Positions 11,291 through 63,136 of a stretch of 64,000 nt of DNA are shown one piece after another. The notes beneath the pieces were generated by a model. It made no database searches. It worked only from the letters and a program-made list of their open reading frames with translations, and was not told the origin of the DNA. Both the position numbers and the translations under genes were made by a program. The first letter of the stretch is position 1; each line of letters begins with the position of its first letter. Origin of the DNA: an uncultured Clostridia bacterium (GTDB taxonomy: Bacteria; Bacillota; Clostridia; Oscillospirales; Acutalibacteraceae); contig CALWUY010000041.1 of assembly GCA_944384855.1 (NCBI GenBank), positions 1,786 through 65,785 on the forward strand, written 5' to 3'.

Positions 11291-11292
11291 GC

Positions 11293-11369
11293 TGGTGGCT
11301 GTAATTGGATTTGAACCAATGACACTGCGGGTATGAACCGCATGCTCTAGCCAACTGAGCTATACAGCC
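11293..11369 (-). tRNA. tRNA-Met, elongator type (anticodon CAU)
   Basis: The reverse complement reads GGCTGTATAGCTCAGTTGGCTAGAGCATGCGGTTCATACCCGCAGTGTCATTGGTTCAAATCCAATTACAGCCACCA. Anticodon loop TTCATAC. It lacks the three G-C pairs of initiator tRNA. A lysidine-modified Ile2 tRNA cannot be excluded from sequence alone. Confidence 0.85.
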
Positions 11370-11998: not shown

Positions 11999-12027
11999 TT
12001 GACATTTCCCGACCGCCGTTGTATAAT
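11999..12027 (+). promoter_or_regulatory. consensus sigma-A promoter of the rplJL unit
   Basis: TTGACA (11999-12004), 17-nt spacer, TATAAT (12022-12027). Confidence 0.8.
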
Positions 12028-12034
12028 TGCTGTG

Positions 12035-12168
12035 TTGCAATCCAAAGACAGTAGGTGGTCTTGTGACCGTAAGTCTTATGCGCCTACCCAGGATACGCGC
12101 TTAAATAATTGATTTTTGTCTTTATTTATGCCTGTCCTTGCCTTTGGACAGGCATTTACTGTTTTTTT
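12035..12168 (+). promoter_or_regulatory. ribosomal protein L10 leader (autoregulatory 5' UTR with attenuator hairpin)
   Basis: It sits between the promoter and rplJ. It contains AAAGACAGTAGGTGG...CCTACCCAGG pairing and a terminator-like hairpin (atgcctgtcc/ggacaggcat, 12128-12155) followed by ttactgttttttt. Confidence 0.7.
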
Positions 12169-12182
12169 CGGAGGTGAACAAA

Positions 12183-36547: not shown

Positions 36548-36580
36548 AAAACAGGAGACCCACGCAGGTCCCCTGTTTTT
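36548..36580. terminator. bidirectional intrinsic terminator
   Basis: aaaacaggagacc-cacgca-ggtcccctgttttt, with one mismatch. Confidence 0.75.
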
Positions 36581-43592: not shown

Positions 43593-46190
43593 TCAGAATG
43601 ATTCGAAGAGCAGTTTTCTAAGTGCTGTGAAGTCAAGTGCATTAAGCACGCCGTCAACCGCTTCGCCGGCCTCAGCAGCGTTTGCAAACCACTTGCCTTC
43701 GTTTCCTGCAAGAAGCTCTTTCTTTACATGGATAAGGTCAAGAATATTAACCGCATTATCTACATTGTAGTCGCCTGCTACGATATCGAAAGCCTGTGAT
43801 ACAGATGTTGCCGCGAGACTCTCAACACCGAATGTAACATCATAGGTGGTAGCCGGAACACCGCTGAAGAATATGTAGTAAACAGCTGCAGGATCGAACC
43901 ACTCGTTAGCAGTAAGTTCAGCCACTGGGATCTTAACCTGATTCCAGCCGAAGCTCAGATTTTCTAATGTATAGTAAGCGCTTGCTTGATCAAAAATATC
44001 GGGCATTTCAACGGGAGTTGCATTAAGATAGAATGTAAGGCTGCACTTAGCGGTTACATAGAGGTTCATTTCAATATAATCTATATCGGTCAAATCCATA
44101 GGTGTGGGAAGAAGTATCGGCTCAGTCGCATTCTGAACGTTGCCGGCAGCAGGTATCTTAACATTTTCATAACCGTTGAATCTGCTGATTACCTTTCCGG
44201 TATAAACCATATCGGCTTTTTCGGATTCCTGTACGGTAAGAGCAAAGTTGGTGAACGCAAACCGAATTTCAGCCGCGGTATCATTAAGAAGTGTACCGTC
44301 GAAGAAGAATCCTTTGATAGCCGAAACGTCAACGCCTTCCGCCAATTCCAGTTCACTGATCGGAAGCACTACATGATTCCAGCCGATTTCCATTTTAGAT
44401 GTATTTATCAATGCCGATGCCCTGTCGGTTGAAGTCCATGCAATAGCATCATTACCGAATCTGATAGCAATATCATTATCAGCCTTTGCACCGAGATATA
44501 CATCAAATTCTATAAAGTCACCTTTGTTAAAATCTATTGTCTTTGTGAAGTTGGTTTTATCAATATACCATGCGTAGTTTCCTACATAACCGTCGGCATC
44601 CCAGCGCATTTTTCCGCCTTCTACAAATGTTCCGTCGCCGCTGATTTCCGGATGAGTTGTAGCTTCAAAATACTCGCTGCGCGGATAAGGCGAGAATTTG
44701 GTGCAGGCAACATTAGCAACCTTAAAGGTAATTGCGTCACTCGAACTCGGTGTGCCTTCAAAGAAGTAGCCGCTCCATGAAGTGAGATCGGCAATCTTGA
44801 AGCCGCTTCCGGAACCCGCGTAATCATTTATTACATCGATTACAACATGATGCCAGCCCGCAGTTTCAAGCTTCGGGAAGGTCCAGAATCCGCGTACCGC
44901 AGCTTTGTCTGTATGTGTATGGAACAGTATGCTGCTTTCCATAGGAGCAGAAACATAAACATCCATCTCAATATAATCAACATCGGTCATGTCAACAGGG
45001 TCAAACTGATTCCATAACTGATATTTATCATACATATTTGAACCTGCAGGAACAGTATTACCGCCAACTGAATTAACAGGTGCTATACCGTCAACAGCCA
45101 TATCAACTAAGAAGTGTTCATTGTTCATATCCGGATAACTCTTTGTAACGCCGAAGTTTGCTATTCCCACAGTAAGCTCAACGCCGGGGGCGTTAGGATC
45201 GCCTTCAAGGAAGAGTGAAGTGAGATTTTCCTTACGGAATGTACCTTCAGTGATTGCAACCTTTGTTAAATCAACAACCACGTGATTCCACTGTCCCGGA
45301 GTGAGTGTGCTAAGAGTAACATTGTATCTCGCACGACCGGTTTCTTCAGTTGCATAATCGAAATCATTACACAGCCAGATTCCCATATCCTGCATCTCTG
45401 CGGAAATCCAGATATCAAACTCAAGGAATTCGGCAGATGTAGTATCCATTGCGTCCGCCAGACCCATGAACAGGCGCGCGTCTGCTCCGTAAATCGGATC
45501 TACATATATATTTGTTACGTCACCTTGCCAATATTTTTCAAATACTGAGTTATCATAATCTATAGCAATATTTTCATAGGTTTCGCCGGCTACAGGAGCT
45601 TCAGGAACCTCAGCAGGTCCTACAGGTTCCGGATCAGGACCAGGATCAGGTTCACCAGCGGACTCATCATTCGTGAAAGCAAGGTTTGCCATAGCGAATT
45701 CTACAGAATTTACATCAGAATCAACAGGCTGCACATTGGTGTTGTACACATAGAACGCGTTAAGCGCAGAAGTATCGTATGGGGCTTCCGGAGTTTCCAA
45801 ATTGCCTTGGTCATTTCCTATAACTGACATAGGAATACAAATGTGATTCCAGCCTGCATTCAAGGCGGGAAGTTTTGTACCTTTGCGTCCGGGACCATCG
45901 CCGCTGCCGCTGGTAACAATAAGCGTAGTTTCCGGCATCGCCGTGCTTGCATACATATCAAATTCAAGATATTCCGCCTCAGATACATCGATAGTACCGG
46001 ATTCGTTATCTGTCGGGAATTCATAATAGAATACACCGCCCCAGCTCATGCTCCAATCCATGGTACTCTGACCTTTTGTATATGTGCGGCTGATAAATTT
46101 ACCATTTTGCTCATATACGGTATTGGTATGGGTATTATCCATCAGCGGAGTTTCTCTTGTGAAGGCAAGATTTGCCATCTTCAGATTCAC
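43593..46190 (-). CDS. C-terminal 865-codon part of a repeat-module protein ending in a dockerin. It has no signal peptide of its own and continues ORF 46218..47195 in frame.
   Basis: Five to six modules of about 145 aa carry the recurring motifs YLEFD.Y.S and GWNHV. A Pro-rich linker is present. The C-terminal dockerin-like duplicated segment is GDYNVDNAVNILDLIHVKKELL / DGVLNALDFTALRKLLF. Confidence 0.75.
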   Translation of the reverse strand: MNLKMANLAFTRETPLMDNTHTNTVYEQNGKFISRTYTKGQSTMDWSMSWGGVFYYEFPTDNESGTIDVSEAEYLEFDMYASTAMPETTLIVTSGSGDGPGRKGTKLPALNAGWNHICIPMSVIGNDQGNLETPEAPYDTSALNAFYVYNTNVQPVDSDVNSVEFAMANLAFTNDESAGEPDPGPDPEPVGPAEVPEAPVAGETYENIAIDYDNSVFEKYWQGDVTNIYVDPIYGADARLFMGLADAMDTTSAEFLEFDIWISAEMQDMGIWLCNDFDYATEETGRARYNVTLSTLTPGQWNHVVVDLTKVAITEGTFRKENLTSLFLEGDPNAPGVELTVGIANFGVTKSYPDMNNEHFLVDMAVDGIAPVNSVGGNTVPAGSNMYDKYQLWNQFDPVDMTDVDYIEMDVYVSAPMESSILFHTHTDKAAVRGFWTFPKLETAGWHHVVIDVINDYAGSGSGFKIADLTSWSGYFFEGTPSSSDAITFKVANVACTKFSPYPRSEYFEATTHPEISGDGTFVEGGKMRWDADGYVGNYAWYIDKTNFTKTIDFNKGDFIEFDVYLGAKADNDIAIRFGNDAIAWTSTDRASALINTSKMEIGWNHVVLPISELELAEGVDVSAIKGFFFDGTLLNDTAAEIRFAFTNFALTVQESEKADMVYTGKVISRFNGYENVKIPAAGNVQNATEPILLPTPMDLTDIDYIEMNLYVTAKCSLTFYLNATPVEMPDIFDQASAYYTLENLSFGWNQVKIPVAELTANEWFDPAAVYYIFFSGVPATTYDVTFGVESLAATSVSQAFDIVAGDYNVDNAVNILDLIHVKKELLAGNEGKWFANAAEAGEAVDGVLNALDFTALRKLLFESF

Positions 46191-46217: not shown

Positions 46218-47195
46218 CTATAAGAATATATTCTTTACCGCCGCTCTGTTAAAATCGGCGTTAGGAGCAGTAGAAATAACACTCAGTTTGCTCATATCCA
46301 CAATAATATGAGTCCAGCCGGCATTTAATTTGAAGCCGGTCTCCATACGCGCTCTGCCCGCGTCTGCCCAAGCAGCGGAAGAAACCCATACCTTAATGTC
46401 TGGAACTGCAACATTTGAATAAATATCCATCTCAAGATATTCGGCATTGGTAGTATTGTAAGACTGGTTTAAATGTCCATACCAGGAAGGGTTATTGTCA
46501 GGTCCGAAAGGAGGCATTGTATAATTTGCGGCAATACCATCTTTAGCCCAGAAAACACCCTCTTTGGTTTCCAGAGCCACACCGTTTACAACAGTGAGTT
46601 TCGGAACAACGATATCGGCAGTAAAGGCAAGGTTTGCCATGATGAAATCCACCGATTCAACCTCAGGATCAACAGGCTGAACATCGGTATTGAAAACATA
46701 GAAAGCGTTAAGTGATGCTGTATCGTAAACAATATCTCTGTCGTAATTGCCTTCGGCATTACCTATGTCCGTCATAGGAATGCAGATGTGGTTCCAGCCT
46801 TCATTCAAAGCAGGGAATTTAACACCCCTGCGTCCGGGGCCGTCGCCGCTGCCGCTTGTGACTATAAGTATAGTGTCCGGCATCGCGGCGCTTGCATACA
46901 TATCAAACTCCAAAGCCTCCGCGTCCGAAACATTTATGGTTCCGGAAGCGTTTTCAGTAGGGAATTCATAGTAAAATACACCGTCCCAGCCGCCAATACC
47001 AAAGTCATACGTACTTTGACCCCTTGTATATGTACGGGAAATAAATTGACCTTCCTGCGAATACAAAGCATATTGTTTCTCATTATTCATAGCAGGAACG
47101 GAAACAGCGCTTGCAATCATAGGTACCGAACACAAAAGCAATGCAACAGCAATAACTATTGCAAGCAGCTTTTTGAGATTTTTCACATAAAACAC
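46218..47195 (-). CDS. N-terminal 325-codon part of the same repeat-module protein, with a signal peptide. It ends at the in-frame TAG at 46218-46220.
   Basis: Signal peptide MFYVKNLKKLLAIVIAVALLLCSVPMIASA. Module 1 is about 70 percent identical to the first module of 43593..46190. The stop falls inside module 2. Confidence 0.75.
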   Translation of the reverse strand: MFYVKNLKKLLAIVIAVALLLCSVPMIASAVSVPAMNNEKQYALYSQEGQFISRTYTRGQSTYDFGIGGWDGVFYYEFPTENASGTINVSDAEALEFDMYASAAMPDTILIVTSGSGDGPGRRGVKFPALNEGWNHICIPMTDIGNAEGNYDRDIVYDTASLNAFYVFNTDVQPVDPEVESVDFIMANLAFTADIVVPKLTVVNGVALETKEGVFWAKDGIAANYTMPPFGPDNNPSWYGHLNQSYNTTNAEYLEMDIYSNVAVPDIKVWVSSAAWADAGRARMETGFKLNAGWTHIIVDMSKLSVISTAPNADFNRAAVKNIFL

Positions 47196-49198: not shown

Positions 49199-49238
49199 TA
49201 AACGGGCTGCTTCGCATAATGCGAAGCAGCCCGTTTTA
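49199..49238. terminator. bidirectional intrinsic terminator
   Basis: aacgggctgcttcgc-ataat-gcgaagcagcccgtt, a 15-bp perfect stem with flanking A and T runs. Confidence 0.88.
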
Positions 49239-49293: not shown

Positions 49294-50220
49294 TCATACT
49301 CGCATTTCAGCTCTCAACAGTTTGCGCGGCACCACAAAGTTTACGGCGGATTTTACAATTTCCACGGTAAATTTCCGGGCGGTTACAAGTTCCCCGTCTA
49401 TAGAAACCGGTATTTCGCGGGGCGCAGATACTTCTACCCTTTTTGCCCTCATGTAGTTCAAATACTTTTTAAACCGGACGTCTTCAAGATGCTCTCCCCG
49501 CTTGTATGTATTCATAAGCTTTAAAAATCCCATACGTGAAATCGGATTTACCTGACACACTTCTATAAGACCGTCATCATTATGAGACAGCGGCGAGCTT
49601 TTGTAAGATCCTCCTACATATTTCCCGTTTGCTAAAGTGCACAAAAGTATTTTGTCACCGCCTATTTTGACTCCGTCTGCCCACATGCTGCAGTTTGTGC
49701 TCATTCCTCCCAGAAATCCTGCTATAACACCTGCGGTGTACGCCCTTTTTCCACCTAAAATTATATTTCTGCGGACCTTGATCATCGTTCTCAGCACATA
49801 GCTGTCCAGACCGAAATGTACTGCGTTAATTGCATATCTTTCTCCTATTTTCAGCGCGTCCACCCTGTGCGACGGCGACCTTGCCAGTTCACTTATATCC
49901 AAAAAATCCTCGGCCGTACCGTAATATTTTATATAGTCGTTGCCGCTTCCGCAGGGAAATACTGCCACCTGAGCATTATCAAAACCTATAACTCCATTTA
50001 CAACCTCGTTTAATGTACCGTCGCCTCCGCAGGCATAAAATCTTATCTGCTCACCGCTTTGAGACAGCACTTTTTTAACATATTCGATAGCCTCTCCGCC
50101 GAATCCGGTAATATGAATTGTATAATCTATATCCAGATTGGTCTTTTCTATAAGTTCTTTTATTTTTTGTGTGGAATCCTTTACTCCGGCTGCAGGATTT
50201 ACTATAAAAATATGCTTCAT
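49294..50220 (-). CDS. diacylglycerol kinase family lipid kinase (DagK/YegS-like)
   Basis: IFIVNPAAG and ACGGDGTLNEVVNG catalytic-domain motifs. The ATG shares one base with the TAA of the upstream ABC gene (TAATG). Confidence 0.85.
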   Translation of the reverse strand: MKHIFIVNPAAGVKDSTQKIKELIEKTNLDIDYTIHITGFGGEAIEYVKKVLSQSGEQIRFYACGGDGTLNEVVNGVIGFDNAQVAVFPCGSGNDYIKYYGTAEDFLDISELARSPSHRVDALKIGERYAINAVHFGLDSYVLRTMIKVRRNIILGGKRAYTAGVIAGFLGGMSTNCSMWADGVKIGGDKILLCTLANGKYVGGSYKSSPLSHNDDGLIEVCQVNPISRMGFLKLMNTYKRGEHLEDVRFKKYLNYMRAKRVEVSAPREIPVSIDGELVTARKFTVEIVKSAVNFVVPRKLLRAEMRV

Positions 50221-52430
50221 TAACTTTCCTCCATGTTTGCCATTTCCCGCTGTGCCATAACGAGTCCGTAATAAATACCGTGCTTCTGCATGAGCTCGTT
50301 ATGCGTTCCCTCCTCGGCAACTGTGCCTTTATCAAGTACTATAAGCCTGTTGGCATTTCGCAGCGTTGAAAGTCTGTGAGCTATAGCTATTGTAGTCCTT
50401 GAAAAAGACAGCCTTGCCAGTGCATCCTGAATTTGTTTCTCGGTTTCAGTGTCAAGAGATGCCGTGGCCTCGTCAAGGATAAGTATTTTCGGATTGTGCA
50501 GCAGCGCCCTCGCAATCGCTATCCTCTGACGTTCTCCTCCGGATACCGTATATCCCTTTTCTCCGACCTTTGTGTTGTATCCGTCGGGAAGTTTTATTAT
50601 AAATTCATGACACCCCGCAAGCTTCGATACCGCTATTACTTCCTCAAGCGTCGCATTCTGTTTTGCGTAAGCGATATTCTGATAAACCGTACCCGAAAAC
50701 AGAAACGTTTCCTGTAAAACCACACCCATCTGGCTTCTCAGTGAATTCTGAGAAATATCCCTGATATCCACACCGTCTACCGAAATACTTCCGTCCTCAA
50801 CATCATACATTCTCATTATGAGATTTATCAGGGTGGATTTCCCCGCTCCCGAAGCTCCCACAATACCTAAAAATTCTCCCGGTTTTATATGAACGCTCAC
50901 CTTGTGAAGCACTTCCGTGCCGCCGTCATATCCGAAAGAAACATTTTTGATATCTATGTCTCCCTTTATACTGAGCTCTACCGAAGCTTCACTGTCGGAT
51001 ATTTCCTCGCTTTCATCAAGTATCTCAAACACCTTTGACGCCGATGTCGTGAAATTCATAACATGGCGGGGTATGTGCGCTATCATTCTGAGCGGCCCGT
51101 AAATCATAGCCGTATATGACGCAAACTGGGTCATTTGCCCTAATGTCATACTTCCGTCCAGAATTTTATTGCCTACATAAAAAAGTATAATAAACTCACC
51201 AAATCCTATGAAAAACCTGAGTATAGGCATAATAAGACTCCAGATACAGTCACTCTTTTCCTGCATACGACGCTCATCCGCCGTGGCTTCCCGGTACCGT
51301 TCGCCTTCCTTATGTTCCATTCCGAAGGCCTTTACCACACGTATTCCGGAAAAGATGTCATGCAAAACGGTATTCGCTTTAGCGCCCGCAATCCAACGCC
51401 TGTGAAACATGTTTCTTATAAATTTCCAGAACAGGTTGAATGAAAGCACTACGAACGGAGTAGGTATGATTATCATCACAAACAGCCGCGCGTCATATAT
51501 GAGAATATATATGCTTACCGCCACAAAAACCGTCAGCTGCTCGATCACTCCCGGCATATAGTTTATAAGAAAATTTTCCATCTGAGATGTGTCGGAAGTG
51601 ACTCTTCTCATAAGGTCACCTGTGGTTTTTGCCGATATCTTATTGACAGAAAGCCGCTGTATTTGGCTGAAAAGCGAATCTCTCAAATCAACTATCATAC
51701 TGTTGCTTGCTTTGATAAACAAATGGTATCTGACAGAAGATACCCCGCGGATTACAAGTTCCAAAACCAGCATAGAAAGTATTATTGCAGCGTATGAGCT
51801 TAGATTTTGAAGTGCATAGTCCGGCTTCCGGATGTAGGAATCCACTATTACCCTGTTTATATACGGTACAATCAGATTGACTGCGCTTACCACCGCAAAA
51901 AGAGCCACCGCCGAAAAAACAAAAACTTTATACGGCGCAAACAGCTTCCATACCCGTTTAAACAACTGCTTTTTGTCAGCGCAGTGCGGGCATACCGAAG
52001 AACCGTTTATGTAAGGCCTGTGACATTTGGGACATTTGTACTCCCTCTCCGCTTCGCCTTCAGGCAGCTTTTTGTCTTCAAAAAAGGTATTCATCTTACG
52101 GGTATTTTTAATTATACTCTTCGAATATCCCAGATCGCTGCGGCAAACAAGCCTCACTTCGCCGGATTTGTACCTGCATGATACAAATATACATCCTACA
52201 CCCATGTCGGTTATAATTTCCTTTATTTCACCACAGCTTATACGCTCTGTTTCTTTGCCGTCGCAAAGTATACGCAGATATTCTTCATCTGCTGTCACTA
52301 TTCCTTCGCAATGCCTTATACTGCTGTCGGGAAGCAGATTGTACCTGAATGCGCAGAACTGGTTCTGTGCAATATTCTCCGGCAGGGCTTTTTCTATGTC
52401 CTGCCGAAGTTCCTTTGATAATATCGACAT
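50220..52430 (-). CDS. ABC exporter half-transporter (TMD-NBD) with an N-terminal cytoplasmic domain of about 165 aa that ends in a zinc ribbon
   Basis: CPKCHRPY...CPHCADKK lies before TM1. Walker A GASGAGKST, VSGGERQR and ILILDEATASLD. Confidence 0.85.
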   Translation of the reverse strand: MSILSKELRQDIEKALPENIAQNQFCAFRYNLLPDSSIRHCEGIVTADEEYLRILCDGKETERISCGEIKEIITDMGVGCIFVSCRYKSGEVRLVCRSDLGYSKSIIKNTRKMNTFFEDKKLPEGEAEREYKCPKCHRPYINGSSVCPHCADKKQLFKRVWKLFAPYKVFVFSAVALFAVVSAVNLIVPYINRVIVDSYIRKPDYALQNLSSYAAIILSMLVLELVIRGVSSVRYHLFIKASNSMIVDLRDSLFSQIQRLSVNKISAKTTGDLMRRVTSDTSQMENFLINYMPGVIEQLTVFVAVSIYILIYDARLFVMIIIPTPFVVLSFNLFWKFIRNMFHRRWIAGAKANTVLHDIFSGIRVVKAFGMEHKEGERYREATADERRMQEKSDCIWSLIMPILRFFIGFGEFIILFYVGNKILDGSMTLGQMTQFASYTAMIYGPLRMIAHIPRHVMNFTTSASKVFEILDESEEISDSEASVELSIKGDIDIKNVSFGYDGGTEVLHKVSVHIKPGEFLGIVGASGAGKSTLINLIMRMYDVEDGSISVDGVDIRDISQNSLRSQMGVVLQETFLFSGTVYQNIAYAKQNATLEEVIAVSKLAGCHEFIIKLPDGYNTKVGEKGYTVSGGERQRIAIARALLHNPKILILDEATASLDTETEKQIQDALARLSFSRTTIAIAHRLSTLRNANRLIVLDKGTVAEEGTHNELMQKHGIYYGLVMAQREMANMEES

Positions 52431-52444
52431 AAATACTATTCTCT

Positions 52445-52975
52445 CTATAAATAAATTTCTATCTTTCTGTGGCTTTTGCGGTCAAGGGATGAAATGCTTT
52501 CTATTACGAATCTGTTGCCGTCAACATCCAGCAGGACAGCCTTGTCCTCTCCTATCCTGATAATATTGCGGAAGGTATCCTGCATTGTGAAATTGACCCG
52601 TCTTCCGTCCTGTGTTTCTACATTCCAATATGAAAAACCGTAGCGTTCTTTAAGGGATAAAACCTGTTTAATCTGAGGCTCGTAGTATTTGCGCTCCAGC
52701 TCGGTCACAAGCAGTTTCCGCGCTTCTTCTCCGAAATCTTCTATATTCAGGATTATTCCGATTTCATTGGATTGATCGTCAAGCACGGAAACGTACTCCC
52801 ATTTAAGCTGAAACGGAAACGCTCTGTGCAGAAACACCCGCCCGTATTCACGGGTTCCCCCATCAAGCGTTACCTTTGCCGAAAGAAAGCCGTTATTAGA
52901 TTCAAAAAACGTGTTACTGCCGTCAAGCCTGACTATCGCGGCAGCAGAATCCTTAAGTATGTTATCGTTTTTCAC
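52445..52975 (-). CDS. DUF1854 domain protein
   Basis: 176 aa. ...HRAFPF...EIGIILNIEDF...ELERKYYEPQIKQV...YWNVETQDGRRVNF...DVDGNRFVIESISSLDRKSHRKIEIYL matches my recollection of the DUF1854 pattern. It sits between two ABC genes. Confidence 0.7.
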   Translation of the reverse strand: MKNDNILKDSAAAIVRLDGSNTFFESNNGFLSAKVTLDGGTREYGRVFLHRAFPFQLKWEYVSVLDDQSNEIGIILNIEDFGEEARKLLVTELERKYYEPQIKQVLSLKERYGFSYWNVETQDGRRVNFTMQDTFRNIIRIGEDKAVLLDVDGNRFVIESISSLDRKSHRKIEIYL

Positions 52976-52986
52976 TTTTTCAACTC

Positions 52987-55275
52987 CTATTCGGTTATTC
53001 CGGCGTTTTTAAGAGCTTCGGCCTGAAGGGTATAAAGGGTATTGTAAATCCCGCCTTTTATTTTGAGCAGTTCTTTATGTGTGCCCTCCTCGGCGACGCG
53101 CCCCTTATCTATTACTATAAGCTTATCTGCATCTCTGAGCGTTGACAGGCGGTGGGCTATCATAATGGTCGTCTTGCCTCTTGTCAGTACCGAGAGCGCG
53201 TTTTGGATAATTTTTTCGGTTTTGGTATCCATAGCCGCGGTTGCTTCGTCAAGTATCAGTATCTTCGGATCCCTCAAAACAGCTCTGGCTATTGAAATTC
53301 TCTGCCGTTCTCCGCCTGACAGGTCTTTATGCCCAAACCCTATAACCGTATTGTATCCGTCCGGAAGCCTCATTATAAAATCATGCGCTCCCGCGCACTT
53401 TGCCGCATATATAACCTCTTCAAATGTCGCCTCCGGCTTCGCATAACGTATGTTATCGAGAATAGAACCGATAAACAGATAGGTTTCCTGCGACACTATC
53501 GCTATATTCTCATACAGCGACCTGAAAGAAAGATCTTTTACGTTTGTACCGTCTATATAAATTCCGCCGTTGTCACAGTCATAAAGCCTGATAATAAGGT
53601 TTGCAATAGTGCTTTTTCCGGCTCCGGTATGTCCTACTATTCCCAATATTTTTCCGGCTTCTATTTTAAAGCTTACATTGTCAATAATTTTTTTGGACTT
53701 TGTGTATCCGAAATCCACGTTCCGAAATTCCACATCTCCTTTTATCTCAGAAGGCGATACAGCGTCATCCTTTTCGGTAATATCAGGTACGGTATCATAA
53801 ATCTCATACAGTCTCTGCAATGAATTTCCGCATGAAGCGTACCAGTTGAACATATTTGAAAAGAAAAACATCGGACTGTATATCATATTGACGTATGCGG
53901 TAAAGGTTATCAGCTCTCCGTATGTGAAATCCCCCTTCATAACCATATAACCGCCTATGCCTAACGATATAATATTTCCGAGATAAAGTATATACCCTAC
54001 CGACGGATAAGCGTAGTTATTGAAAAGAGACAGCCGCTTATTTCCGGCGGCAGCCCGTCTGTTGGTATTCTCAAATCTGATATTTTCTTCGTTTTCCTTT
54101 GAAAACGCTTTTACTACACGTATTCCGCCCAAAACATCAGCCAGCTGTGAATTCATGCTCCTGACTCCCGAATACATTCTGGCGTGCAACTTTCTTGAAG
54201 GATTCAGTGTCCTTCTGAGCGCTATGAAAAAAACAGGTATTGTAATAAGCGAAAGCGCCGCGAGCAGAGGATTCATTATAAACAAAATCACGCACAGTAC
54301 CGCTACCTGAACGATATTTATAAGAAAATACGGCACACCGTCACAGAAAAATCCGTAAATATTATTGGAATCATCGTTAACCTGCGTCATCAGTCCGCCG
54401 GTCTGTCTTCCGCTGAAAAAATTCATTGAAAGCTTTTCTATCGCTCCGAAAATCATATTTTTAAGATCATATACAATTTTCGCCGCAATTTTGGCGGAAA
54501 TATATCCGTTGACCATATCTGCCGCCTGCAGCAGCAGCTGTGTGGCGACTACTATCCCTACGCTAAGCAGTACCTGCCCGTAAAGACTTCCGCCCTCTGT
54601 CAGCACATTGTCATAAAAAAATCCTTTTGAAAAATACGGAGTCAGTATCCCGGCAACAGTTAAAACGCAAAGAGATAAAACCATTATCACCAATTCTCTT
54701 TTGTATTTTAACAGCATGCTTGAAAAACGGTTGAACAGCTTGCCTTTTTCCATGCACTTAGGACAGATTTTCCGGTTGCGGTCAGGATACCTCATTCCGC
54801 ATTTCGGACAGCAATTCTCTTTCGGGTCATCCTCAGGATCGACCGTAAAATCGGGCGAAGTAATTTCACCGGCTATTATTTTGTTAAGATACTTTGAAAA
54901 AGAAACGGCATTCCCTTTGCAGAAATTTGTCATACCGCAAAGCAGTATACTTTGTCCGTTTCTGCAGAACGCTGCCAGCCTGGCAGACGAAATGAGTTCT
55001 TCAACGTTCACTCTTTCAATATTGTCAAGAGCATACGATTCAAACGATATTTCTTTAAACTGAGTGCTCAGACCTTTTCCTCTGGCTTCAGGGCGTAAAA
55101 CCGTCCTTCCGCAAAGCAAATAAACGCGGTCTGCCGTCGCGGCAATATATGTATCGCAAAAATTATGCTGAGCATCCATATCACAGTATGTCAATATAAG
55201 AATATCTTGGGAAGATACTCCCTTTTCTTCGAAAATTCCGTATACAAAATCCGCAATTTTCCCAAAAGCAAACAA
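52987..55275 (-). CDS. ABC exporter half-transporter (TMD-NBD) with an N-terminal cytoplasmic domain of about 190 aa that ends in a zinc ribbon
   Basis: CCPKCGMRYPDRNRKICPKCMEKG lies before TM1. Walker A GHTGAGKST, LSGGERQR and ILILDEATAAMD. Confidence 0.85.
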   Translation of the reverse strand: MFAFGKIADFVYGIFEEKGVSSQDILILTYCDMDAQHNFCDTYIAATADRVYLLCGRTVLRPEARGKGLSTQFKEISFESYALDNIERVNVEELISSARLAAFCRNGQSILLCGMTNFCKGNAVSFSKYLNKIIAGEITSPDFTVDPEDDPKENCCPKCGMRYPDRNRKICPKCMEKGKLFNRFSSMLLKYKRELVIMVLSLCVLTVAGILTPYFSKGFFYDNVLTEGGSLYGQVLLSVGIVVATQLLLQAADMVNGYISAKIAAKIVYDLKNMIFGAIEKLSMNFFSGRQTGGLMTQVNDDSNNIYGFFCDGVPYFLINIVQVAVLCVILFIMNPLLAALSLITIPVFFIALRRTLNPSRKLHARMYSGVRSMNSQLADVLGGIRVVKAFSKENEENIRFENTNRRAAAGNKRLSLFNNYAYPSVGYILYLGNIISLGIGGYMVMKGDFTYGELITFTAYVNMIYSPMFFFSNMFNWYASCGNSLQRLYEIYDTVPDITEKDDAVSPSEIKGDVEFRNVDFGYTKSKKIIDNVSFKIEAGKILGIVGHTGAGKSTIANLIIRLYDCDNGGIYIDGTNVKDLSFRSLYENIAIVSQETYLFIGSILDNIRYAKPEATFEEVIYAAKCAGAHDFIMRLPDGYNTVIGFGHKDLSGGERQRISIARAVLRDPKILILDEATAAMDTKTEKIIQNALSVLTRGKTTIMIAHRLSTLRDADKLIVIDKGRVAEEGTHKELLKIKGGIYNTLYTLQAEALKNAGITE

Positions 55276-55395
55276 ACATATCTCTCCCCATTAAAAATAT
55301 TTTTTAATTATACACCCTATTTCCCGATATTTCAACACAAATAGAGACAATCCCATTTTTTGATTGAAAAACAATAAAATTACGGTATAAAACAC

Positions 55396-55424
55396 TTGAA
55401 AAACACAAAACGATACATTATAAT
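55396..55424 (+). promoter_or_regulatory. sigma-A promoter of the aminotransferase gene
   Basis: TTGAAA (55396-55401), 17-nt spacer, TATAAT (55419-55424). Confidence 0.7.
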
Positions 55425-55448
55425 GTATAGATTATAGGAGGTCCTGTT

Positions 55449-59235: not shown

Positions 59236-60510
59236 TCAAAATATCAGTTTCTGAATACTTTCTGCATCAATATCTCTTAAATTCTTTCTTTGCTTCACAG
59301 ACAATGCCGCCGCCGCACCGCAGGCTTCCCCAATGCCTACACATATCGGCATTGCTCTAAAGTTGGAATGAGCCATGTGGGTTCCGCTTATATTTCGGCC
59401 TGAAAGCAGCAGTCCGTCTACTTTTTCGGGTACTAAACAGCCGTAAGGAATTGTGTACCCATTCTCCTGGCTGAATTCCTTTTGGACTCCCGTTTTGTCA
59501 AGTCCCGCGCCTGTGATATTATGAACGTCAAAATTAAAGTGAGCGCCCTTAACCACCGCGTCATCAAACTGCCTGGCTTCCAAAATATCGGTTTCGGTCA
59601 GCTGACTCACACCTTTGAAATGTCTCGTTTCCCTGATACCTATCAATGACGCCGCACTGATTATATAACAGTTTTCATATCCGGGAGCGTATTCACGCAG
59701 AAAACTCACTATCGGTTCCATTTGGCTGCGGCAGGTAAGTTCAGCTCGGGTAAGGTCTTCCGTAATTGTACCGTCAATATCTGTGCAGTTAGTCATATTG
59801 CAGGTAACTATTCCCGGAAGGCTCGATTTATAAAGCAGTACGTGGCCTGCCGGAGAAGGTAATTTTTTCCGTGCCAATGCCTGAAGCTCCCCCTTTTCCG
59901 TCTGAACCTCAGTCTCAAAACTGCCGGGAAAAACCGCCCTCGAATAATCAACTCCGCCGACCTTAAACATTAAGGTTGCCGGCTGCATTTTGCCGTCCGA
60001 CTCTCTTCCCTTAAAATACTCCGCACCGGCTTTAGCCGCAACGTCTCCGTCCCCGGTACAGTCAATTATAATCTGCGCGGTATAGGCCATACGTCCGCTT
60101 TTACCCTCTGTTATAATACCTGTCAAACGGTTGTTATCTGTTATAGCTCCGCAGCAAAATGTATACAGCAAAAGATCGACCCCGGCTGCCCTGAGCATTT
60201 CGCAATACGTAATTTTCAACAGTTCGGGATCTATTGCTATTGTGCATTCGCCGGTATTGTAGGGGTTTTTATCTGCGGAATACTGTAATATTTCACGGTA
60301 CAGTTTACTGTCGCATGTTCCGGTAAAATGGGACATCAGTCCCGTAGTGGATATTCCTCCCACAGATCCCTGCCATTCAATAAGCAAGACTTTCATACCG
60401 TTTCTCGCAGCCGTTACAGAAGCCGACATCCCCGAAGGCCCCGAACCTACCACAATGACGTCATATCTGTCGTTTAAAGGTATCTGTTTTTCTTTCTCCC
60501 TATATGTCAT
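59236..60510 (-). CDS. FAD-dependent oxidoreductase (GIDA/FAD_oxidored-like)
   Basis: The N-terminal Rossmann motif YDVIVVGSGPSGMSASVTAARNG. Confidence 0.7.
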   Translation of the reverse strand: MTYREKEKQIPLNDRYDVIVVGSGPSGMSASVTAARNGMKVLLIEWQGSVGGISTTGLMSHFTGTCDSKLYREILQYSADKNPYNTGECTIAIDPELLKITYCEMLRAAGVDLLLYTFCCGAITDNNRLTGIITEGKSGRMAYTAQIIIDCTGDGDVAAKAGAEYFKGRESDGKMQPATLMFKVGGVDYSRAVFPGSFETEVQTEKGELQALARKKLPSPAGHVLLYKSSLPGIVTCNMTNCTDIDGTITEDLTRAELTCRSQMEPIVSFLREYAPGYENCYIISAASLIGIRETRHFKGVSQLTETDILEARQFDDAVVKGAHFNFDVHNITGAGLDKTGVQKEFSQENGYTIPYGCLVPEKVDGLLLSGRNISGTHMAHSNFRAMPICVGIGEACGAAAALSVKQRKNLRDIDAESIQKLIF

Positions 60511-60601: not shown

Positions 60602-61456
60602 GTGCAAAGGGTGATAACAACGGATATCCATTCAAAGAACATCATTGCATATATCGAATATTTGAAAGTCTCCGGTTTTACCGTTACTCTCCACGGAGCG
60701 TTCATTAACAACAGTGTATTTATGAATTACAATTATCATCAAAATCCGTACTGTCACTACGTTAAAACCGTTTACGGCAAATGGGATATATGTATAAAAA
60801 ATCAGCAGAAAGTAATGAGGATGTCAGAAAAGGGTTCGTTTTTCGGCTGCTGCTATGCCGGTGTAGGTGAATTTGTGTATCCGGTGGAGATCGACGGAAA
60901 GGTCAGCGGATTTGTTTCGGTAAGCGGATACAAAGGCCGTATGACAGCAGATAAAAGCAATCGCTTTGCGCTAAAGTATTCTCTTGAAAAAGATGAAATC
61001 AAAAGACTTTGCGATAAATATTTGAAAGCCGATATTCCGGATAAAGCAATGATAGACGCGGTTATTGAACCTCTGGTATTTATGATTGAAGATTATTTTT
61101 CAAGACACCGCGAGGATTTAAGCGCCGAATGGCAGCTCTATCATAAAGTTTTGCGATATGTTACCGAGAACTGCCACAACCGTATCACTATGAAACAGTT
61201 AAGCTGTCAGTTCAATTACAGTGTTTCCACTTTAAGCCATTTGTTTTTAAAAAACTCGGGCAAAAGTCTGCCCGAGTTCATAGATGATCTGCGCCTCAAT
61301 GAAGCAAAATGGTATCTTGCAAACAGTAATACCAGCATTACAGAAATCGCCCTGTTTTTAGGTTATAACAGCAGTAACTACTTTTCCACGGTATTCAAAT
61401 CAAAACAGGGTATTACGCCGCGTGAATACCGCAGGAACTCACAGGATTTCAAATGA
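60602..61456 (+). CDS. AraC family regulator with a PocR-like N-terminal sensor domain
   Basis: Cys-containing sensor pattern (CHYVK..GKWDIC...FFGCCYAGVGEFVYPVEIDGKVSGFVSVSGY) and a C-terminal AraC HTH (ITEIALFLGYNSSNYFSTVFKSKQGITPREY). Confidence 0.75.
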   Translation: MQRVITTDIHSKNIIAYIEYLKVSGFTVTLHGAFINNSVFMNYNYHQNPYCHYVKTVYGKWDICIKNQQKVMRMSEKGSFFGCCYAGVGEFVYPVEIDGKVSGFVSVSGYKGRMTADKSNRFALKYSLEKDEIKRLCDKYLKADIPDKAMIDAVIEPLVFMIEDYFSRHREDLSAEWQLYHKVLRYVTENCHNRITMKQLSCQFNYSVSTLSHLFLKNSGKSLPEFIDDLRLNEAKWYLANSNTSITEIALFLGYNSSNYFSTVFKSKQGITPREYRRNSQDFK

Positions 61457-63136
61457 AAATACCCTGAATTCCTTACAGCCGTATGTTGACTTTGGTATAA
61501 AACGTATTTTTGAGACATTCCAGTCCACATTAAGCCTTACAAATCTCTGATGGTTTTCCTCAATTTTTAAAGTACATACCGTGCCGTCGGTTTTTATCCC
61601 GGAAATTTCATAGGATTTTATCAGCGTTTCAGATATTTTATATCCTGTTTCCTCCAGCGGATAGCAACAGGGCATATTATGATCTTTGCGGTTCAAATCG
61701 CTGTCAAATATAAGCCGTATCGCGCTTACATGTGTATCCCTATCGAAAATGTATTCAACTGTATCCCCGTCTTTTCCTATCCAGCAGTTTTCCTCTCCCC
61801 TGTCAAGACCGCTGCGGATAATCTCCGACGTACAGCGGCTGTTTTTTGAAAGCTGTGAAATTTCTCTTTTGTGCCATGGAAGATAACAGTCATCGTCCAT
61901 CAAAGTATTCTGCAGAGCTTTTATTTCTATATTTCTAATGTCGGTATCCGTTTTTACGGCCTGTGCGACAGCCGTTCCCAAAGCCTGACCTAAAATCCCG
62001 CAGGTAGCCATAACGCGGCTTGAGCTGAGCGCCGCATGGGTAACGCTTATATTTCTCCCGGCAAAAACCAGATTTTTTATGTTTTGGGAAATCATAGCCC
62101 TGAGCGGCAGTCCCCACGGCTGCGGCGCCGGATGAAAAATCGTAGGATAACCTTCGGTATAATAAAATCCTTCGGGGAAATGATCATCCATACTCCAGCC
62201 GGCATAGGCTACCAGATCCTCAAACCTTCCCTCTGCCTCAACATCATTCTGCGTTACGGTATATTCTCCTATATACCTCCGGCTCTCTCTTTTGCCCGGC
62301 AAAAAACCTATCCAGTCAAGTTCCCAGTTTTCCGCGCCGTGGTCTCCCCGGTTTTTCATATGATCCCAGACGCCTAAACAAATTTTCAGAAGCTCATCCC
62401 GGCAGCGGTCTGTATCGTGAATACAGTCCCATTCGCCTCCCAGTTCAATCCACCAGAAGTTATCTCCTATAAAATGGTCCTTATACGGAAGACTTTCATC
62501 AGTCTCGTATTTATAAGCCCATTCATAAGGTGTAAACTTAACCGGACCTTCAGTTTCACGTATCTGAAACAGACAGCTCATCCCCATGGTTTTTTTATCA
62601 GCCTGCTCAGGAGGTATCGTTTCATTGAATTCGGATTTGGCCTCTCTGCCGTACCTGTATCCCGCGCCGCTCAGCGGCGCTAAAATCGAATCCCCCGAAC
62701 AATCGGCAAAATACCTTGCGCTTACAATATGAAAGGTTTCGGCATTAGACTGCCATGCCTTTACACTTTTGATTTCTCCGTTTTCCGTCACAGCGTCAAA
62801 AACCGCGCTGTTTAAAAGCAAGGTAATGTTTTTCTCTGATTTCACCTTGGAATAAAGCGTAAGATCCCAAACTGTATATTTCAGTCCGGGATTATTATAT
62901 AAATTTTCAAGCAGCAGTTCTTCTACTATACCTGTCTCCCTGTTGTCTTTTCCGTGACAGCCGCATACCCACATTCTTATTTCACTTGACGAATTCCCTC
63001 CAAGTACGGCTCTGTCCTGAATCAGTACTACCTTTATTCCGTGGCGTGCAGCTGCTATCGCAGTGCAAATTCCTGATAACCCGCCTCCGACTACGCACAG
63101 TTGGGTATTGTAATTAACAGTCTTCAAACTAATCAC
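61439..63136 (-). CDS. FAD-dependent oxidoreductase with an extra C-terminal beta-rich domain
   Basis: The N-terminal motif LCVVGGGLSGICTAIAAARHG. 565 aa. Its 3' end overlaps the convergent AraC gene by 18 nt. Confidence 0.7.
   Translation of the reverse strand: MISLKTVNYNTQLCVVGGGLSGICTAIAAARHGIKVVLIQDRAVLGGNSSSEIRMWVCGCHGKDNRETGIVEELLLENLYNNPGLKYTVWDLTLYSKVKSEKNITLLLNSAVFDAVTENGEIKSVKAWQSNAETFHIVSARYFADCSGDSILAPLSGAGYRYGREAKSEFNETIPPEQADKKTMGMSCLFQIRETEGPVKFTPYEWAYKYETDESLPYKDHFIGDNFWWIELGGEWDCIHDTDRCRDELLKICLGVWDHMKNRGDHGAENWELDWIGFLPGKRESRRYIGEYTVTQNDVEAEGRFEDLVAYAGWSMDDHFPEGFYYTEGYPTIFHPAPQPWGLPLRAMISQNIKNLVFAGRNISVTHAALSSSRVMATCGILGQALGTAVAQAVKTDTDIRNIEIKALQNTLMDDDCYLPWHKREISQLSKNSRCTSEIIRSGLDRGEENCWIGKDGDTVEYIFDRDTHVSAIRLIFDSDLNRKDHNMPCCYPLEETGYKISETLIKSYEISGIKTDGTVCTLKIEENHQRFVRLNVDWNVSKIRFIPKSTYGCKEFRVFSFEIL

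What the first reader, a model, noticed from the sequence alone, without database searches (positions are those of the whole stretch)
49294..55275. Uncharacterised four-gene operon: two zinc-ribbon ABC half-transporters, DUF1854, and a translationally coupled lipid kinase
**Gene order (minus strand).** The genes run ABC(762 aa), then an 11-nt gap, DUF1854(176 aa), a 14-nt gap, ABC(736 aa), then a TAATG overlap into a DagK-like lipid kinase (308 aa). A strong terminator follows.

**N-terminal domains.** Both ABC proteins are TMD-NBD exporters with canonical Walker A/B and signature motifs. Each also has a cytoplasmic N-terminal domain of 165-190 aa. The two domains are homologous to each other (for example IAATADRVYLLCGR against IVTADEEYLRILCDG). 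Each ends in a CxxC-x(10-13)-CxxC zinc ribbon just before TM1.

**Inference.** A soluble DUF1854 protein is encoded between the two halves. As far as I know, neither this extra domain nor DUF1854 has an assigned function. Tight coupling to a diacylglycerol-kinase-family enzyme suggests the substrate or regulator is a lipid, for example flipping or export linked to phosphorylation of a lipid.
Basis: partly seen in the sequence, partly recalled or inferred. Interest (0 to 1): 0.65.

Follow-up and report, generated by a model that had tools for sequence, protein, structure and literature searches.

The report
DUF1854-type ABC exporter plus hitch-hiking kinase
The region holds a conserved three-gene export pump of gut Clostridia (two ABC half-transporters with a PH-like and zinc-ribbon front end, plus a DUF1854 partner), while the lipid kinase behind it is an unrelated gene in front of which the pump genes were inserted in this one species.

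Summary
That covers the four minus-strand genes, the 11-nt and 14-nt gaps, the TAATG overlap, the terminator, the homologous N-terminal domains and the zinc ribbons.

Across 84 related loci from different Clostridia, ABC1-DUF1854-ABC2 is always kept in that order. No DagK-family gene lies within 10 kb of it in any locus. Orthologues of the kinase sit elsewhere. In one relative (L095) the kinase lies directly next to the same aspartate-aminotransferase/SecDF backbone, behind the same promoter, with no transporter genes. So the triad was inserted between the kinase's promoter and the kinase.

The triad itself is a heterodimeric, cphA-less relative of the "cyanophycin metabolism-associated" ABC + DUF1854 pair of beta-proteobacteria. 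It scores below the cut-offs of both NCBIfam models.

New details from this work:
- The N-domain is predicted with high confidence to be a PH-like fold followed by an invariant four-cysteine ribbon.
- Both ATP sites are consensus.
- Natural fusions place DUF1854 at the C-terminus of the ABC1-type half.

The substrate is unknown. I rate this a new variant of a known but uncharacterised kind, of moderate interest.

The parts
55307..55335 (-). Sigma-70-type promoter TTGAAA-17-TATAAT (extended TGTATAAT). It drives the four genes and is orthologous to the promoter that directly precedes the kinase gene in relatives.
   Evidence: 11 of 12 consensus matches; the same promoter with its flanks lies 25-31 nt before the start codon in L095 and L089. 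Window vs L089 scores 35 against shuffles of 20.5 +/- 2.8 (1 of 500 reach it).
52987..55275 (-). ABC1-type half-transporter, 762 aa: N-domain, zinc ribbon, type IV exporter TMD (residues 196-469) and NBD (532-680) with consensus motifs.
   Evidence: An orthologue lies upstream of DUF1854 in every related locus with enough flank.
54838..55275 (-). ABC1 N-terminal domain (residues 1-146), PH-like fold: helix 9-17, seven strands between 27 and 115, C-terminal helix 120-134.
   Evidence: AlphaFold2 model, pLDDT 89.5, pTM 0.76. The Foldseek top hits are all PH domains, probability 1.00, E down to 1e-4. No Pfam family and no PDB sequence match.
54754..54810 (-). ABC1 zinc ribbon CPKC-x11-CPKC (residues 156-174), just before the elbow helix and TM1.
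   Evidence: All four Cys are conserved in 70/70 orthologues. 21 of 25 homologues give sub-threshold zinc-ribbon Pfam hits.
52445..52975 (-). DUF1854 protein, 176 aa, soluble, with two beta-rich halves each followed by a helix. Inferred to be a cytoplasmic subunit of the transporter.
   Evidence: PF08909 E=1.7e-31. AlphaFold2 pLDDT 84.3. No PDB fold match. Always lies between the two ABC genes. Fused to the C-terminus of ABC1-type proteins in P0345, P0349, P0403 and P0415.
50220..52430 (-). ABC2-type half-transporter, 736 aa, with the same architecture as ABC1 and 37% identity to it from the ribbon onward.
   Evidence: An orthologue lies downstream of DUF1854 in every related locus with enough flank.
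52062..52430 (-). ABC2 N-terminal domain (residues 1-123), homologous to the ABC1 N-domain.
   Evidence: hhalign of orthologue profiles: 95.5% probability, E=4.8e-9, 119 columns; local mode 95.4%, E=1.9e-8.
51981..52034 (-). ABC2 zinc ribbon CPKC-x10-CPHC (residues 133-150).
   Evidence: Cys conserved in 69-70 of 73 orthologues.
49294..50220 (-). Soluble DAGK-family lipid kinase (DgkB/YegS/BmrU type), 308 aa. Its start overlaps the ABC2 stop by 1 nt. It is co-transcribed here but is not part of the conserved module.
   Evidence: DAGK_cat + YegS_C. TIGR00147 110 bits against a cut-off of 118.65. S. aureus DgkB 2qv7, E=2.8e-13. Absent from 84 related loci. Orthologues lie elsewhere.
49200..49236 (-). 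Intrinsic-terminator hairpin (17 bp, 3-nt loop) between the kinase gene and the convergent FGGY sugar-kinase gene. Probably acts in both directions.
   Evidence: dG -31.9 kcal/mol, z = -6.3, 0 of 200 shuffles fold as well.

Best explanation
The functional unit is a three-gene module, ABC1 - DUF1854 - ABC2. It encodes a heterodimeric type IV (ABCB-like) ABC exporter with two consensus ATP sites.

Each half carries a cytoplasmic N-terminal PH-like domain followed by a four-cysteine zinc ribbon, placed immediately before the first membrane helix. DUF1854 is a soluble cytoplasmic subunit that sits at the NBD side of the ABC1-type half.

I infer that the two PH-like/ribbon domains and DUF1854 together form a cytoplasmic docking and hand-over platform. 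This would be analogous in role to the C39-like domains of type I secretion ABC proteins. The platform would recognise a cargo made in the cytoplasm and feed it into the exporter, or gate the exporter.

By analogy with the homologous single-gene ABC + DUF1854 pair next to cphA/cphA' in beta-proteobacteria, the cargo is more likely a peptide-like or polyamide-like molecule than a membrane lipid. In Clostridia the module is not linked to cphA, and the cargo is unknown.

The DAGK-family kinase is an independent housekeeping-type gene. In the lineage of this window the triad was inserted between the kinase's promoter and its start codon. The kinase is therefore now transcribed, and translationally coupled, at the end of the transporter operon without being functionally tied to it.

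Shown: gene content, conservation, homologies, fold of the N-domain, fusions, promoter orthology.
Inferred: heterodimer formation, physical complex with DUF1854, docking role, nature of the cargo.
For: Conservation of the triad
- A scan with the DUF1854 alignment found 139 relatives in reference genomes. The 80 loci kept are all gut or rumen Clostridia.
- In these plus 4 further loci, an ABC1-type gene lies upstream and an ABC2-type gene downstream of DUF1854 wherever the contig allows. That gave 72 and 75 full-length ORFs, window included (71 and 74 from related loci).
- Unbiased clustering of all ORFs within 10 kb finds no other family in more than 20 loci.

The kinase is not part of it
- 0 hits in 84 loci even at E<=1.
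- Reverse test: L095 has SecF-SecD-AspAT divergent from the kinase with nothing between. L089, L090, L092 and L096-98 have other neighbours.
- The intergenic region and promoter are orthologous between window and L095 (score 43 vs 20.2 +/- 3.0, 0 of 500 shuffles) and between window and L089.

Relation to the cphA-associated system
- The best NCBIfam hits are NF052233 and NF052234.
- Ralstonia wenshanensis p56D2 has cphA, cphA divergent from ABC (NF052233, 1460 bits) followed by DUF1854 (NF052234, 234 bits).
- The window proteins are 34% identical to the Ralstonia ABC and collinear from residues 32 and 53. The DUF1854 profile matches at 97.3%, E=2.4e-11. The N2+ribbon profile matches at 88.6%, E=2.6e-6.
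- Cofitness of DUF1854, the ABC gene and cphA/cphA' in two beta-proteobacteria is reported in 10.1101/072470.

Architecture
- ABC core ~ ABCB1, Sav1866, TM287/288.
- PH-like N-domain.
- Invariant ribbon cysteines and consensus ATPase motifs in both halves.
- Four natural fusions have the order N-domain-ribbon-TMD-NBD-DUF1854. They are closer to ABC1 than to ABC2 (38-40% vs 32-37% identity), and the N1 profile matches three of them at E 1e-18 to 1e-11, with no N1-profile match to P0349.
Against: - No experiment bears on this Clostridial module.
- Heterodimer formation and binding of DUF1854 are inferred only from gene order, co-conservation and fusions.
- The DUF1854 model has no recognisable fold relative in the PDB (best TM about 0.25), so its role as adaptor rather than regulator is a guess.
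- The window proteins fall below the curated cut-offs of NF052233 (488 and 534 vs 880) and NF052234 (68 vs 150). No cphA lies within 10 kb in any Clostridial locus or in the 64-kb window. The polyamide analogy may therefore not transfer.
- PH-like folds bind lipids in many eukaryotic proteins, so a lipid cargo is not excluded by the fold.
- In this species the kinase is tightly coupled (1-nt overlap, strong Shine-Dalgarno sequence inside ABC2). The same order occurs on several metagenome contigs of the same species, so a newly acquired functional link cannot be ruled out.
- Whole genomes were not searched, so cphA or the kinase may co-occur with the triad at genome level.
Confidence: 0.65

Rival explanations
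1. All four genes form one functional unit in which the exporter flips or exports a lipid whose phosphorylation by the DAGK-family kinase is coupled to transport. The PH-like domains and/or DUF1854 would bind the lipid.
For: - 1-nt start/stop overlap with a strong Shine-Dalgarno sequence.
- One promoter and one terminator for the four genes.
- The same order on same-species metagenome contigs.
- A PH-like fold.
- Sub-threshold similarity of the ABC core to MsbA models (382 and 425 bits, cut-off 602).
Against: - 0 of 84 related loci carry a DagK-family gene within 10 kb.
- Even the relative with 77% identical DUF1854 (L004) lacks it.
- Kinase orthologues at 58-75% identity are never next to the triad.
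- The promoter in front of ABC1 is the kinase's ancestral promoter.
- MsbA similarity is the generic similarity of all ABCB-type exporters.
- The closest specific relatives are linked to cphA, not to lipid genes.
Confidence: 0.06
2. The triad is a true cyanophycin-type system. It would export, or otherwise handle, a cyanophycin-like Asp/Arg polyamide made by a CphA encoded elsewhere in the genome, exactly as proposed for beta-proteobacteria.
For: - The best NCBIfam hits for all three proteins are the 'cyanophycin metabolism-associated' models.
- Full-length homology to the Ralstonia pair that sits next to two cphA genes.
- Cofitness data in two beta-proteobacteria.
Against: - Scores are well below the equivalog cut-offs.
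- No cphA lies in the window or within 10 kb in the other 93 loci held (84 triad loci and 9 kinase loci); only the Ralstonia control scores.
- No other conserved neighbour.
- Only about 34% identity to the Ralstonia ABC, and only 24-25% for DUF1854.
- The duplication into a heterodimer suggests functional divergence.
Confidence: 0.15
3. DUF1854 and the N-domains are regulatory rather than cargo-handling. DUF1854 would act like the C-terminal regulatory domains of MalK, MetN or ModC, binding a small ligand and inhibiting or activating the ATPase of an otherwise ordinary drug- or metabolite-efflux pump.
For: - Fusions place DUF1854 directly after the NBD, the position of regulatory domains in importer ATPases.
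- DUF1854 is a small beta-rich two-lobed protein.
- No biosynthetic gene is linked in Clostridia.
- The ABC core resembles multidrug exporters.
Against: - No fold match to TOBE, Mop or ACT-type regulatory domains.
- In beta-proteobacteria the pair is cofit with a polymer synthetase rather than showing drug phenotypes.
- Regulation would not obviously need PH-like/ribbon domains on both halves as well.
Confidence: 0.2

Closest known systems
Cyanophycin metabolism-associated ABC transporter + DUF1854 protein of beta-proteobacteria (NCBIfam NF052233 / NF052234; Cupriavidus and Acidovorax genes of Price et al., bioRxiv 10.1101/072470; example: Ralstonia wenshanensis p56D2 KOL96_03340/03345)
   Same: - Type IV ABC exporter with a cytoplasmic N-terminal domain ending in a CxxC-x10-CxxC zinc ribbon before TM1.
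- A DUF1854 gene immediately downstream.
- Full-length collinear homology: 34% identity for the ABC proteins, and a DUF1854 profile match at 97.3%.
   Different: - One ABC gene there (presumably a homodimer) against two diverged paralogues flanking DUF1854 here.
- Next to cphA/cphA' there, but no cphA within 10 kb in any of 84 Clostridial loci.
- The window proteins score below both equivalog cut-offs.
Heterodimeric bacterial ABCB-type exporters (TM287/288, TmrAB, BmrCD, LmrCD)
   Same: Two adjacent paralogous half-transporter genes with the TMD-NBD order and the type IV exporter fold.
   Different: - Those have no N-terminal PH-like/zinc-ribbon domain and no DUF1854 partner.
- Most have one degenerate ATP site, whereas both sites are consensus here.
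ABC exporters with N-terminal cytoplasmic accessory domains: C39 peptidase or C39-like domains of bacteriocin exporters and HlyB-type type I secretion ABC proteins
   Same: An extra cytoplasmic domain in front of TM1 of an ABCB-like exporter. In those systems the domain recognises the cargo, which is the functional analogy I propose.
   Different: - A different fold: PH-like plus zinc ribbon rather than a papain-like C39 domain.
- No C39 Pfam or NCBIfam match beyond the shared ABC core.
- No membrane-fusion or outer-membrane partner genes.
Soluble bacterial DAGK-family lipid kinases (S. aureus DgkB, B. subtilis BmrU, E. coli YegS)
   Same: The fourth gene has DAGK_cat + YegS_C domains and matches DgkB 2qv7 at E=2.8e-13.
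   Different: - Just below the TIGR00147 cut-off (110 vs 118.65 bits).
- Its substrate was not tested.
- It is not a conserved partner of the transporter.

Membership tests
Pfam DUF1854 (PF08909) | Score at or above the gathering threshold over the full model | tested here: met
   109.2 bits against a cut-off of 26.8, model positions 1-128 of 130.
NCBIfam NF052234, cyanophycin metabolism-associated DUF1854 protein (equivalog) | Score at or above the curated cut-off of 150 bits | tested here: not met
   68.3 bits. The Ralstonia control scores 234 bits.
NCBIfam NF052233, cyanophycin metabolism-associated ABC transporter (equivalog) | Score at or above the curated cut-off of 880 bits | tested here: not met
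   ABC1 488 bits, ABC2 534 bits. The Ralstonia control scores 1460 bits.
Cyanophycin-associated ABC + DUF1854 system | Genomic linkage to cyanophycin synthetase genes (cphA/cphA') | tested here: not met
   tblastn with both Ralstonia CphA proteins gives no hit at E<=1e-3 in the 64-kb window or in the other 93 loci held (84 triad loci and 9 kinase loci). Only the Ralstonia locus scores. Whole genomes were not searched.
Cyanophycin-associated ABC + DUF1854 system | ABC exporter with an N-terminal cytoplasmic domain ending in a four-Cys ribbon, and a DUF1854 gene directly downstream | tested here: met
   The ribbon is present in both window proteins and in the Ralstonia protein (CPTC-x10-CPQC). 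Alignment is collinear from residues 32 and 53. The N2+ribbon profile matches the Ralstonia N-terminus at 88.6%, E=2.6e-6.
Type IV (ABCB-like) ABC exporter | ABC_membrane (six-helix TMD) followed by ABC_tran, with Walker A/B, signature, Q-loop and H-loop | tested here: met
   PF00664 and PF00005 in both proteins. Motifs are consensus and conserved. PDB sequence matches to ABCB1, Sav1866 and TM287/288.
Heterodimeric ABC exporters with one degenerate ATP site (TM287/288, BmrCD type) | Non-consensus Walker B glutamate, signature or H-loop in one half | tested here: not met
   Both halves have ILILDE, (L/V)SGGE and AHR, conserved in 70/70 and 72-73/73 orthologues except the first signature residue of ABC2 (L in 70/73; V in the window).
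MsbA lipid A flippase (TIGR02203) | Score at or above the curated cut-off of 602 bits | tested here: not met
   382 and 425 bits. This is the generic similarity among ABCB-type exporters.
PH-like fold superfamily | Seven-stranded beta-sandwich capped by a C-terminal alpha-helix | tested here: met
   AlphaFold2 model, pLDDT 89.5: strands 27-33, 39-46, 50-62, 69-82, 86-93, 98-104 and 109-115, helix 120-134. The Foldseek top 50 are nearly all PH domains at probability 0.97-1.00, with TM 0.54 to TBC1D23-PH normalised to the target. This is a prediction, not a solved structure.
PH-like fold superfamily | Phosphoinositide or lipid binding through a basic pocket (a feature of only a subset of PH domains) | not tested
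   Model coordinates could not be inspected and no binding assay is available.
YegS/Rv2252/BmrU lipid kinase family (TIGR00147) / DAGK family | DAGK_cat plus the YegS_C beta-sandwich domain; TIGR00147 cut-off of 118.65 bits | tested here: inconclusive
   Both Pfam domains are above threshold (68.7 and 62.2 bits). TIGR00147 scores 110.1 bits, just below its cut-off. DgkB 2qv7 matches at E=2.8e-13.
C39 / C39-like domain ABC exporters (bacteriocin and type I secretion) | N-terminal papain-like C39 peptidase or C39-like domain | tested here: not met
   No Peptidase_C39 Pfam hit. NCBIfam matches to these families start after residue ~150. The N-domain fold is PH-like.

The most novel reading that the evidence does not exclude
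The PH-like/zinc-ribbon N-domains together with DUF1854 define a previously undescribed cytoplasmic cargo-recognition apparatus for ABCB-type exporters. It would be used in beta-proteobacteria for a CphA-made polyamide. In gut and rumen Clostridia it would serve a different, still unknown, non-ribosomally made polymer or peptide whose synthetase is encoded elsewhere. On this reading the family label 'cyanophycin metabolism-associated' describes only one branch of a broader class of exporter.
Probability: 0.2. Interest if true: 0.7.

Novelty: new variant of a known kind. Interest (0 to 1): 0.42.

Why it matters
DUF1854-linked ABC exporters are known only from gene neighbourhood and cofitness. 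Nobody has shown what they move or what DUF1854 does.

This work adds four points:
- The extra N-terminal domain is a confidently predicted PH-like fold with an invariant zinc ribbon.
- A heterodimeric form is widespread in gut and rumen Clostridia (139 reference species hit, 1,491 DUF1854 representatives overall).
- That form has no link to cyanophycin synthetase.
- Natural fusions tie DUF1854 to the ABC1-type half.

Together these give concrete constructs for structural and biochemical work. They also caution against carrying the 'cyanophycin' annotation over to Clostridia.

The kinase result is a useful negative example. A 1-nt translational overlap and a shared promoter did not mean shared function. 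They resulted from insertion of a gene module behind another gene's promoter.

Tried and rejected
- Lipid-kinase coupling. Tested both ways, from the triad to the kinase and from the kinase to the triad. Rejected.
- DUF1854 as a relative of the N-domain, or as an internal duplication. hhalign of each half against N1, N2 and the other half gave probabilities of 1.2% or less. Rejected at sequence level.
- Fold assignment for DUF1854. Foldseek against the PDB gave no hit below E=1e-3 and TM scores of 0.26 or less. The scattered weak hits to tandem beta-barrel proteins (HIN-200, Rtt106, LolA) and a single weak Pfam eIF-1a hit were not reproducible across 15 family members. No assignment made.
- Sequence search of the N-domain profile against the PDB and Pfam. 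Only sub-threshold zinc-ribbon hits.
- cphA near the triad. None found.
- Other conserved neighbours. RadA, SpoIVA and a MurA/EPSP-synthase-like gene recur in 16-20 loci, which I read as local synteny within subclades and not as functional linkage.
- Riboswitch or leader upstream of the operon. No Rfam hit in the region. The only hits in the window are two tRNAs and an L10 leader about 40 kb away.
- The terminator scan tool did not list the 49200-49236 hairpin, because the U-tract after the full stem is interrupted. Direct folding shows the hairpin is very stable.
- The homologue search with the N-domain returned only 26 proteins, mostly fragments. That was enough for a confident model but too few to map the domain's wider distribution.

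Full report
**1. Observation**

- ABC1, 52987-55275, 762 aa
- DUF1854, 52445-52975, 176 aa
- ABC2, 50220-52430, 736 aa
- a DAGK-family kinase, 49294-50220, 308 aa

The junctions read TAG-gagttgaaaaa-GTG (11 nt, with AGGAG overlapping the ABC1 stop), TAG-14 nt-ATG, and GGAGGAAAGTTAATG, a 1-nt overlap preceded by a strong Shine-Dalgarno sequence.

A TTGAAA-17-TATAAT promoter lies at 55335-55307. A perfect 17-bp hairpin lies at 49200-49236 (dG -31.9 kcal/mol, z = -6.3), between the kinase gene and a convergent FGGY sugar-kinase gene.

Pfam confirms ABC_membrane + ABC_tran in both large proteins, DUF1854 (E=1.7e-31) and DAGK_cat + YegS_C.

**2. The N-terminal domains**

BLAST aligns ABC1 and ABC2 at 37% identity, but only from the zinc ribbon onward. 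I built profiles from 70 and 73 orthologues taken from related loci. With those, the regions before the ribbon align over 119 columns at 95.5% probability, E=4.8e-9.

The four ribbon cysteines are invariant: 70/70 in ABC1 orthologues and 69-70/73 in ABC2 orthologues.

An AlphaFold2 model of ABC1 residues 1-191 is confident (pLDDT 89.5, pTM 0.76). It shows a helix, seven strands and a long C-terminal helix, followed by the ribbon and the elbow helix. Foldseek against the PDB returns PH domains almost exclusively, at probability 0.97-1.00: GRK2, BRAG2, TBC1D23, PDZ-RhoGEF, SIN1 and Rtt106.

No Pfam family covers this part, and no solved structure matches it by sequence.

Both nucleotide-binding domains carry consensus Walker A, Walker B with the catalytic glutamate, signature, Q-loop and H-loop. 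These are conserved in all orthologues. Unlike many heterodimeric exporters, neither ATP site is degenerate.

**3. DUF1854**

The model is confident (pLDDT 84.3) and shows two beta-rich halves, each followed by a helix. It has no significant fold match in the PDB. It shows no detectable sequence relation to the N-domains or between its own halves.

An exhaustive profile search finds 1,491 representatives at the 50% identity level. Most are stand-alone proteins of 160-240 aa. Four proteins of 935-1,013 aa have the order N-domain, ribbon, TMD, NBD, DUF1854. These fusions are closer to ABC1 than to ABC2, which mirrors the gene order ABC1 then DUF1854. This is Rosetta-stone evidence that DUF1854 is a cytoplasmic subunit next to the NBD of the ABC1-type half.

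**4. Conservation**

A scan of one genome per species with a DUF1854 alignment found 139 relatives. The 80 loci kept are all gut or rumen Clostridia: Oscillospiraceae, Acutalibacteraceae and unclassified Eubacteriales.

In these and four further loci, an ABC1-type gene precedes and an ABC2-type gene follows DUF1854 wherever the contig is long enough, and both include their N-domains. Clustering all ORFs within 10 kb shows no other family in more than 20 loci. The recurring ones (RadA, SpoIVA, a MurA/EPSP-synthase-like gene) reflect synteny within subclades. The triad is therefore a self-contained module.

**5. The kinase**

No DagK-family gene was found in any of the 84 loci, even at E<=1. The window scores 632 bits as positive control. 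The relative with 77% identical DUF1854 has rplJ after ABC2.

In the reverse direction, the kinase orthologues have these neighbours:

| Kinase identity | Locus | Neighbours |
|---|---|---|
| 75% | L089 | same SecF-SecD-AspAT backbone as the window; a methyltransferase, TrpR and an SbcCD-like pair take the place of the triad |
| 73% | L095 | the kinase is directly divergent from AspAT, with nothing in between |
| 73% | L096-98 | S12/S7/EF-G |
| 63% | L090 | Rex and ParB |
| 58% | L092/93 | a Bmp importer and ribosomal protein L19 |

The 173-nt region between AspAT and ABC1 in the window aligns with the 160-nt AspAT-kinase intergenic region of L095. The local score is 43 against 20.2 +/- 3.0 for shuffles, and 0 of 500 shuffles reach it.

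The promoter with its flanks (ATTTnTGTTGAAA-N17-TGTATAAT) is shared with L095 and L089. It sits 25-31 nt before the start codon in all three.

The simplest reading is that the triad was inserted between the kinase's promoter and its coding sequence in the lineage of this window. The four-gene order recurs only on metagenome contigs of the same species. The kinase itself is an ordinary soluble DgkB/YegS/BmrU-type enzyme.

**6. What the triad is related to**

The best NCBIfam matches of all three proteins are NF052233 (cyanophycin metabolism-associated ABC transporter) and NF052234 (cyanophycin metabolism-associated DUF1854 protein). All three scores are below the cut-offs: 488 and 534 against 880, and 68 against 150.

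A bona fide example lies on the Ralstonia wenshanensis megaplasmid p56D2. Two cphA genes are divergent from one ABC gene (1460 bits), which is followed by DUF1854 (234 bits).

The Ralstonia ABC protein has the same layout, including a CPTC-x10-CPQC ribbon before TM1. It is 34% identical to both window proteins and collinear with them from inside the N-domain. The DUF1854 proteins match at 97.3% probability, and the N2+ribbon profile matches at 88.6%.

Price and co-workers found DUF1854, the ABC gene and cphA/cphA' cofit in Acidovorax and Cupriavidus. They proposed export of an amino-acid polymer (10.1101/072470). I found no later experimental work in the searchable literature.

No cphA-like sequence occurs in the 64-kb window or in any Clostridial locus.

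**7. Mechanism, with shown and inferred steps marked**

Shown:
- a conserved module of two paralogous ABCB-type half-transporters with PH-like/zinc-ribbon N-domains and a DUF1854 protein
- two consensus ATP sites
- fusions that tie DUF1854 to the C-terminus of the ABC1 type
- homology to the cphA-linked pair
- the kinase as a non-conserved passenger behind its own former promoter

Inferred:
- The two halves form a heterodimer.
- DUF1854 binds on the cytoplasmic side.
- The PH-like/ribbon domains and DUF1854 together recognise and deliver, or gate, a cytoplasmic cargo. This is functionally analogous to the C39-like domains of type I secretion ABC proteins.
- The cargo is more likely peptide-like or polyamide-like than lipid.

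I put about 0.65 on this overall picture. Confidence is much higher (above 0.9) for the two statements that the triad is the unit and that the kinase is not part of it. Confidence is low (about 0.2-0.3) for any statement about the cargo.

**8. Novelty and score**

The kind of system, a DUF1854-linked ABC exporter, is already catalogued and has a published functional proposal. It is not categorically new.

The Clostridial form differs in clear ways: a heterodimer, no cphA linkage, and scores below the equivalog cut-offs. As far as I could find, the PH-like assignment of the N-domain and the ABC1-specific fusions have not been described. I therefore rate it a new variant of a known kind, with interest 0.42.

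Noticed in passing
window 12024-12169 (+), 11215-11369 (-); locus L004 10997-11913: Rfam finds an L10 leader in front of rplJ/rplL, and ARAGORN finds tRNA-Glu and tRNA-Met nearby. In relative L004 (DUF1854 77% identical) the ABC-DUF1854-ABC triad lies directly upstream of rplJ-rplL. In the window it is about 38 kb away, so the triad has changed chromosomal position between close relatives.
   Followed up: partly
window 55276-55448; L095 5841-6000; L089 3170-8000: The interval between the aspartate aminotransferase gene and the DAGK-family kinase gene is a variable slot. It is empty in L095. It holds a methyltransferase, TrpR and an SbcCD-like pair in L089, and the ABC triad in the window. The kinase promoter is conserved in all three.
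   Followed up: yes
window 43593-46190 (-) and 46218-47195 (-): Two adjacent paralogous proteins (865 and 325 aa) share near-identical N-terminal modules. The larger has internal repeats, a weak CBM30 hit and a C-terminus that looks like a dockerin (DYNVDNAVNILDL ... NALDFTALRKLL). This suggests a fibre-degrading, cellulosome-type organism.
   Followed up: no
window 36579-38258 (-): A third ABCB-type half-transporter (559 aa) clusters with the ABC family but lacks the PH-like/zinc-ribbon N-domain and has no DUF1854 neighbour.
   Followed up: no
window 59236-60510 (-), 60602-61456 (+), 61439-63136 (-): Two paralogous PF12831 FAD-dependent oxidoreductases flank an AraC-family regulator. Their function is unclear.
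   Followed up: no
proteins P0345, P0349, P0403, P0415 (representative library): Natural single-chain versions have the order N-domain, zinc ribbon, TMD, NBD, DUF1854 (935-1,013 aa) with long, low-complexity linkers before DUF1854. They would be convenient targets for structure prediction or expression.
   Followed up: partly
loci L003 and about 19 others (e.g. L003 3976-5355 and 10928-12406): In a subclade of about 20 species the triad is flanked by radA upstream and spoIVA downstream. I read this as synteny, but a link to sporulation was not tested.
   Followed up: no
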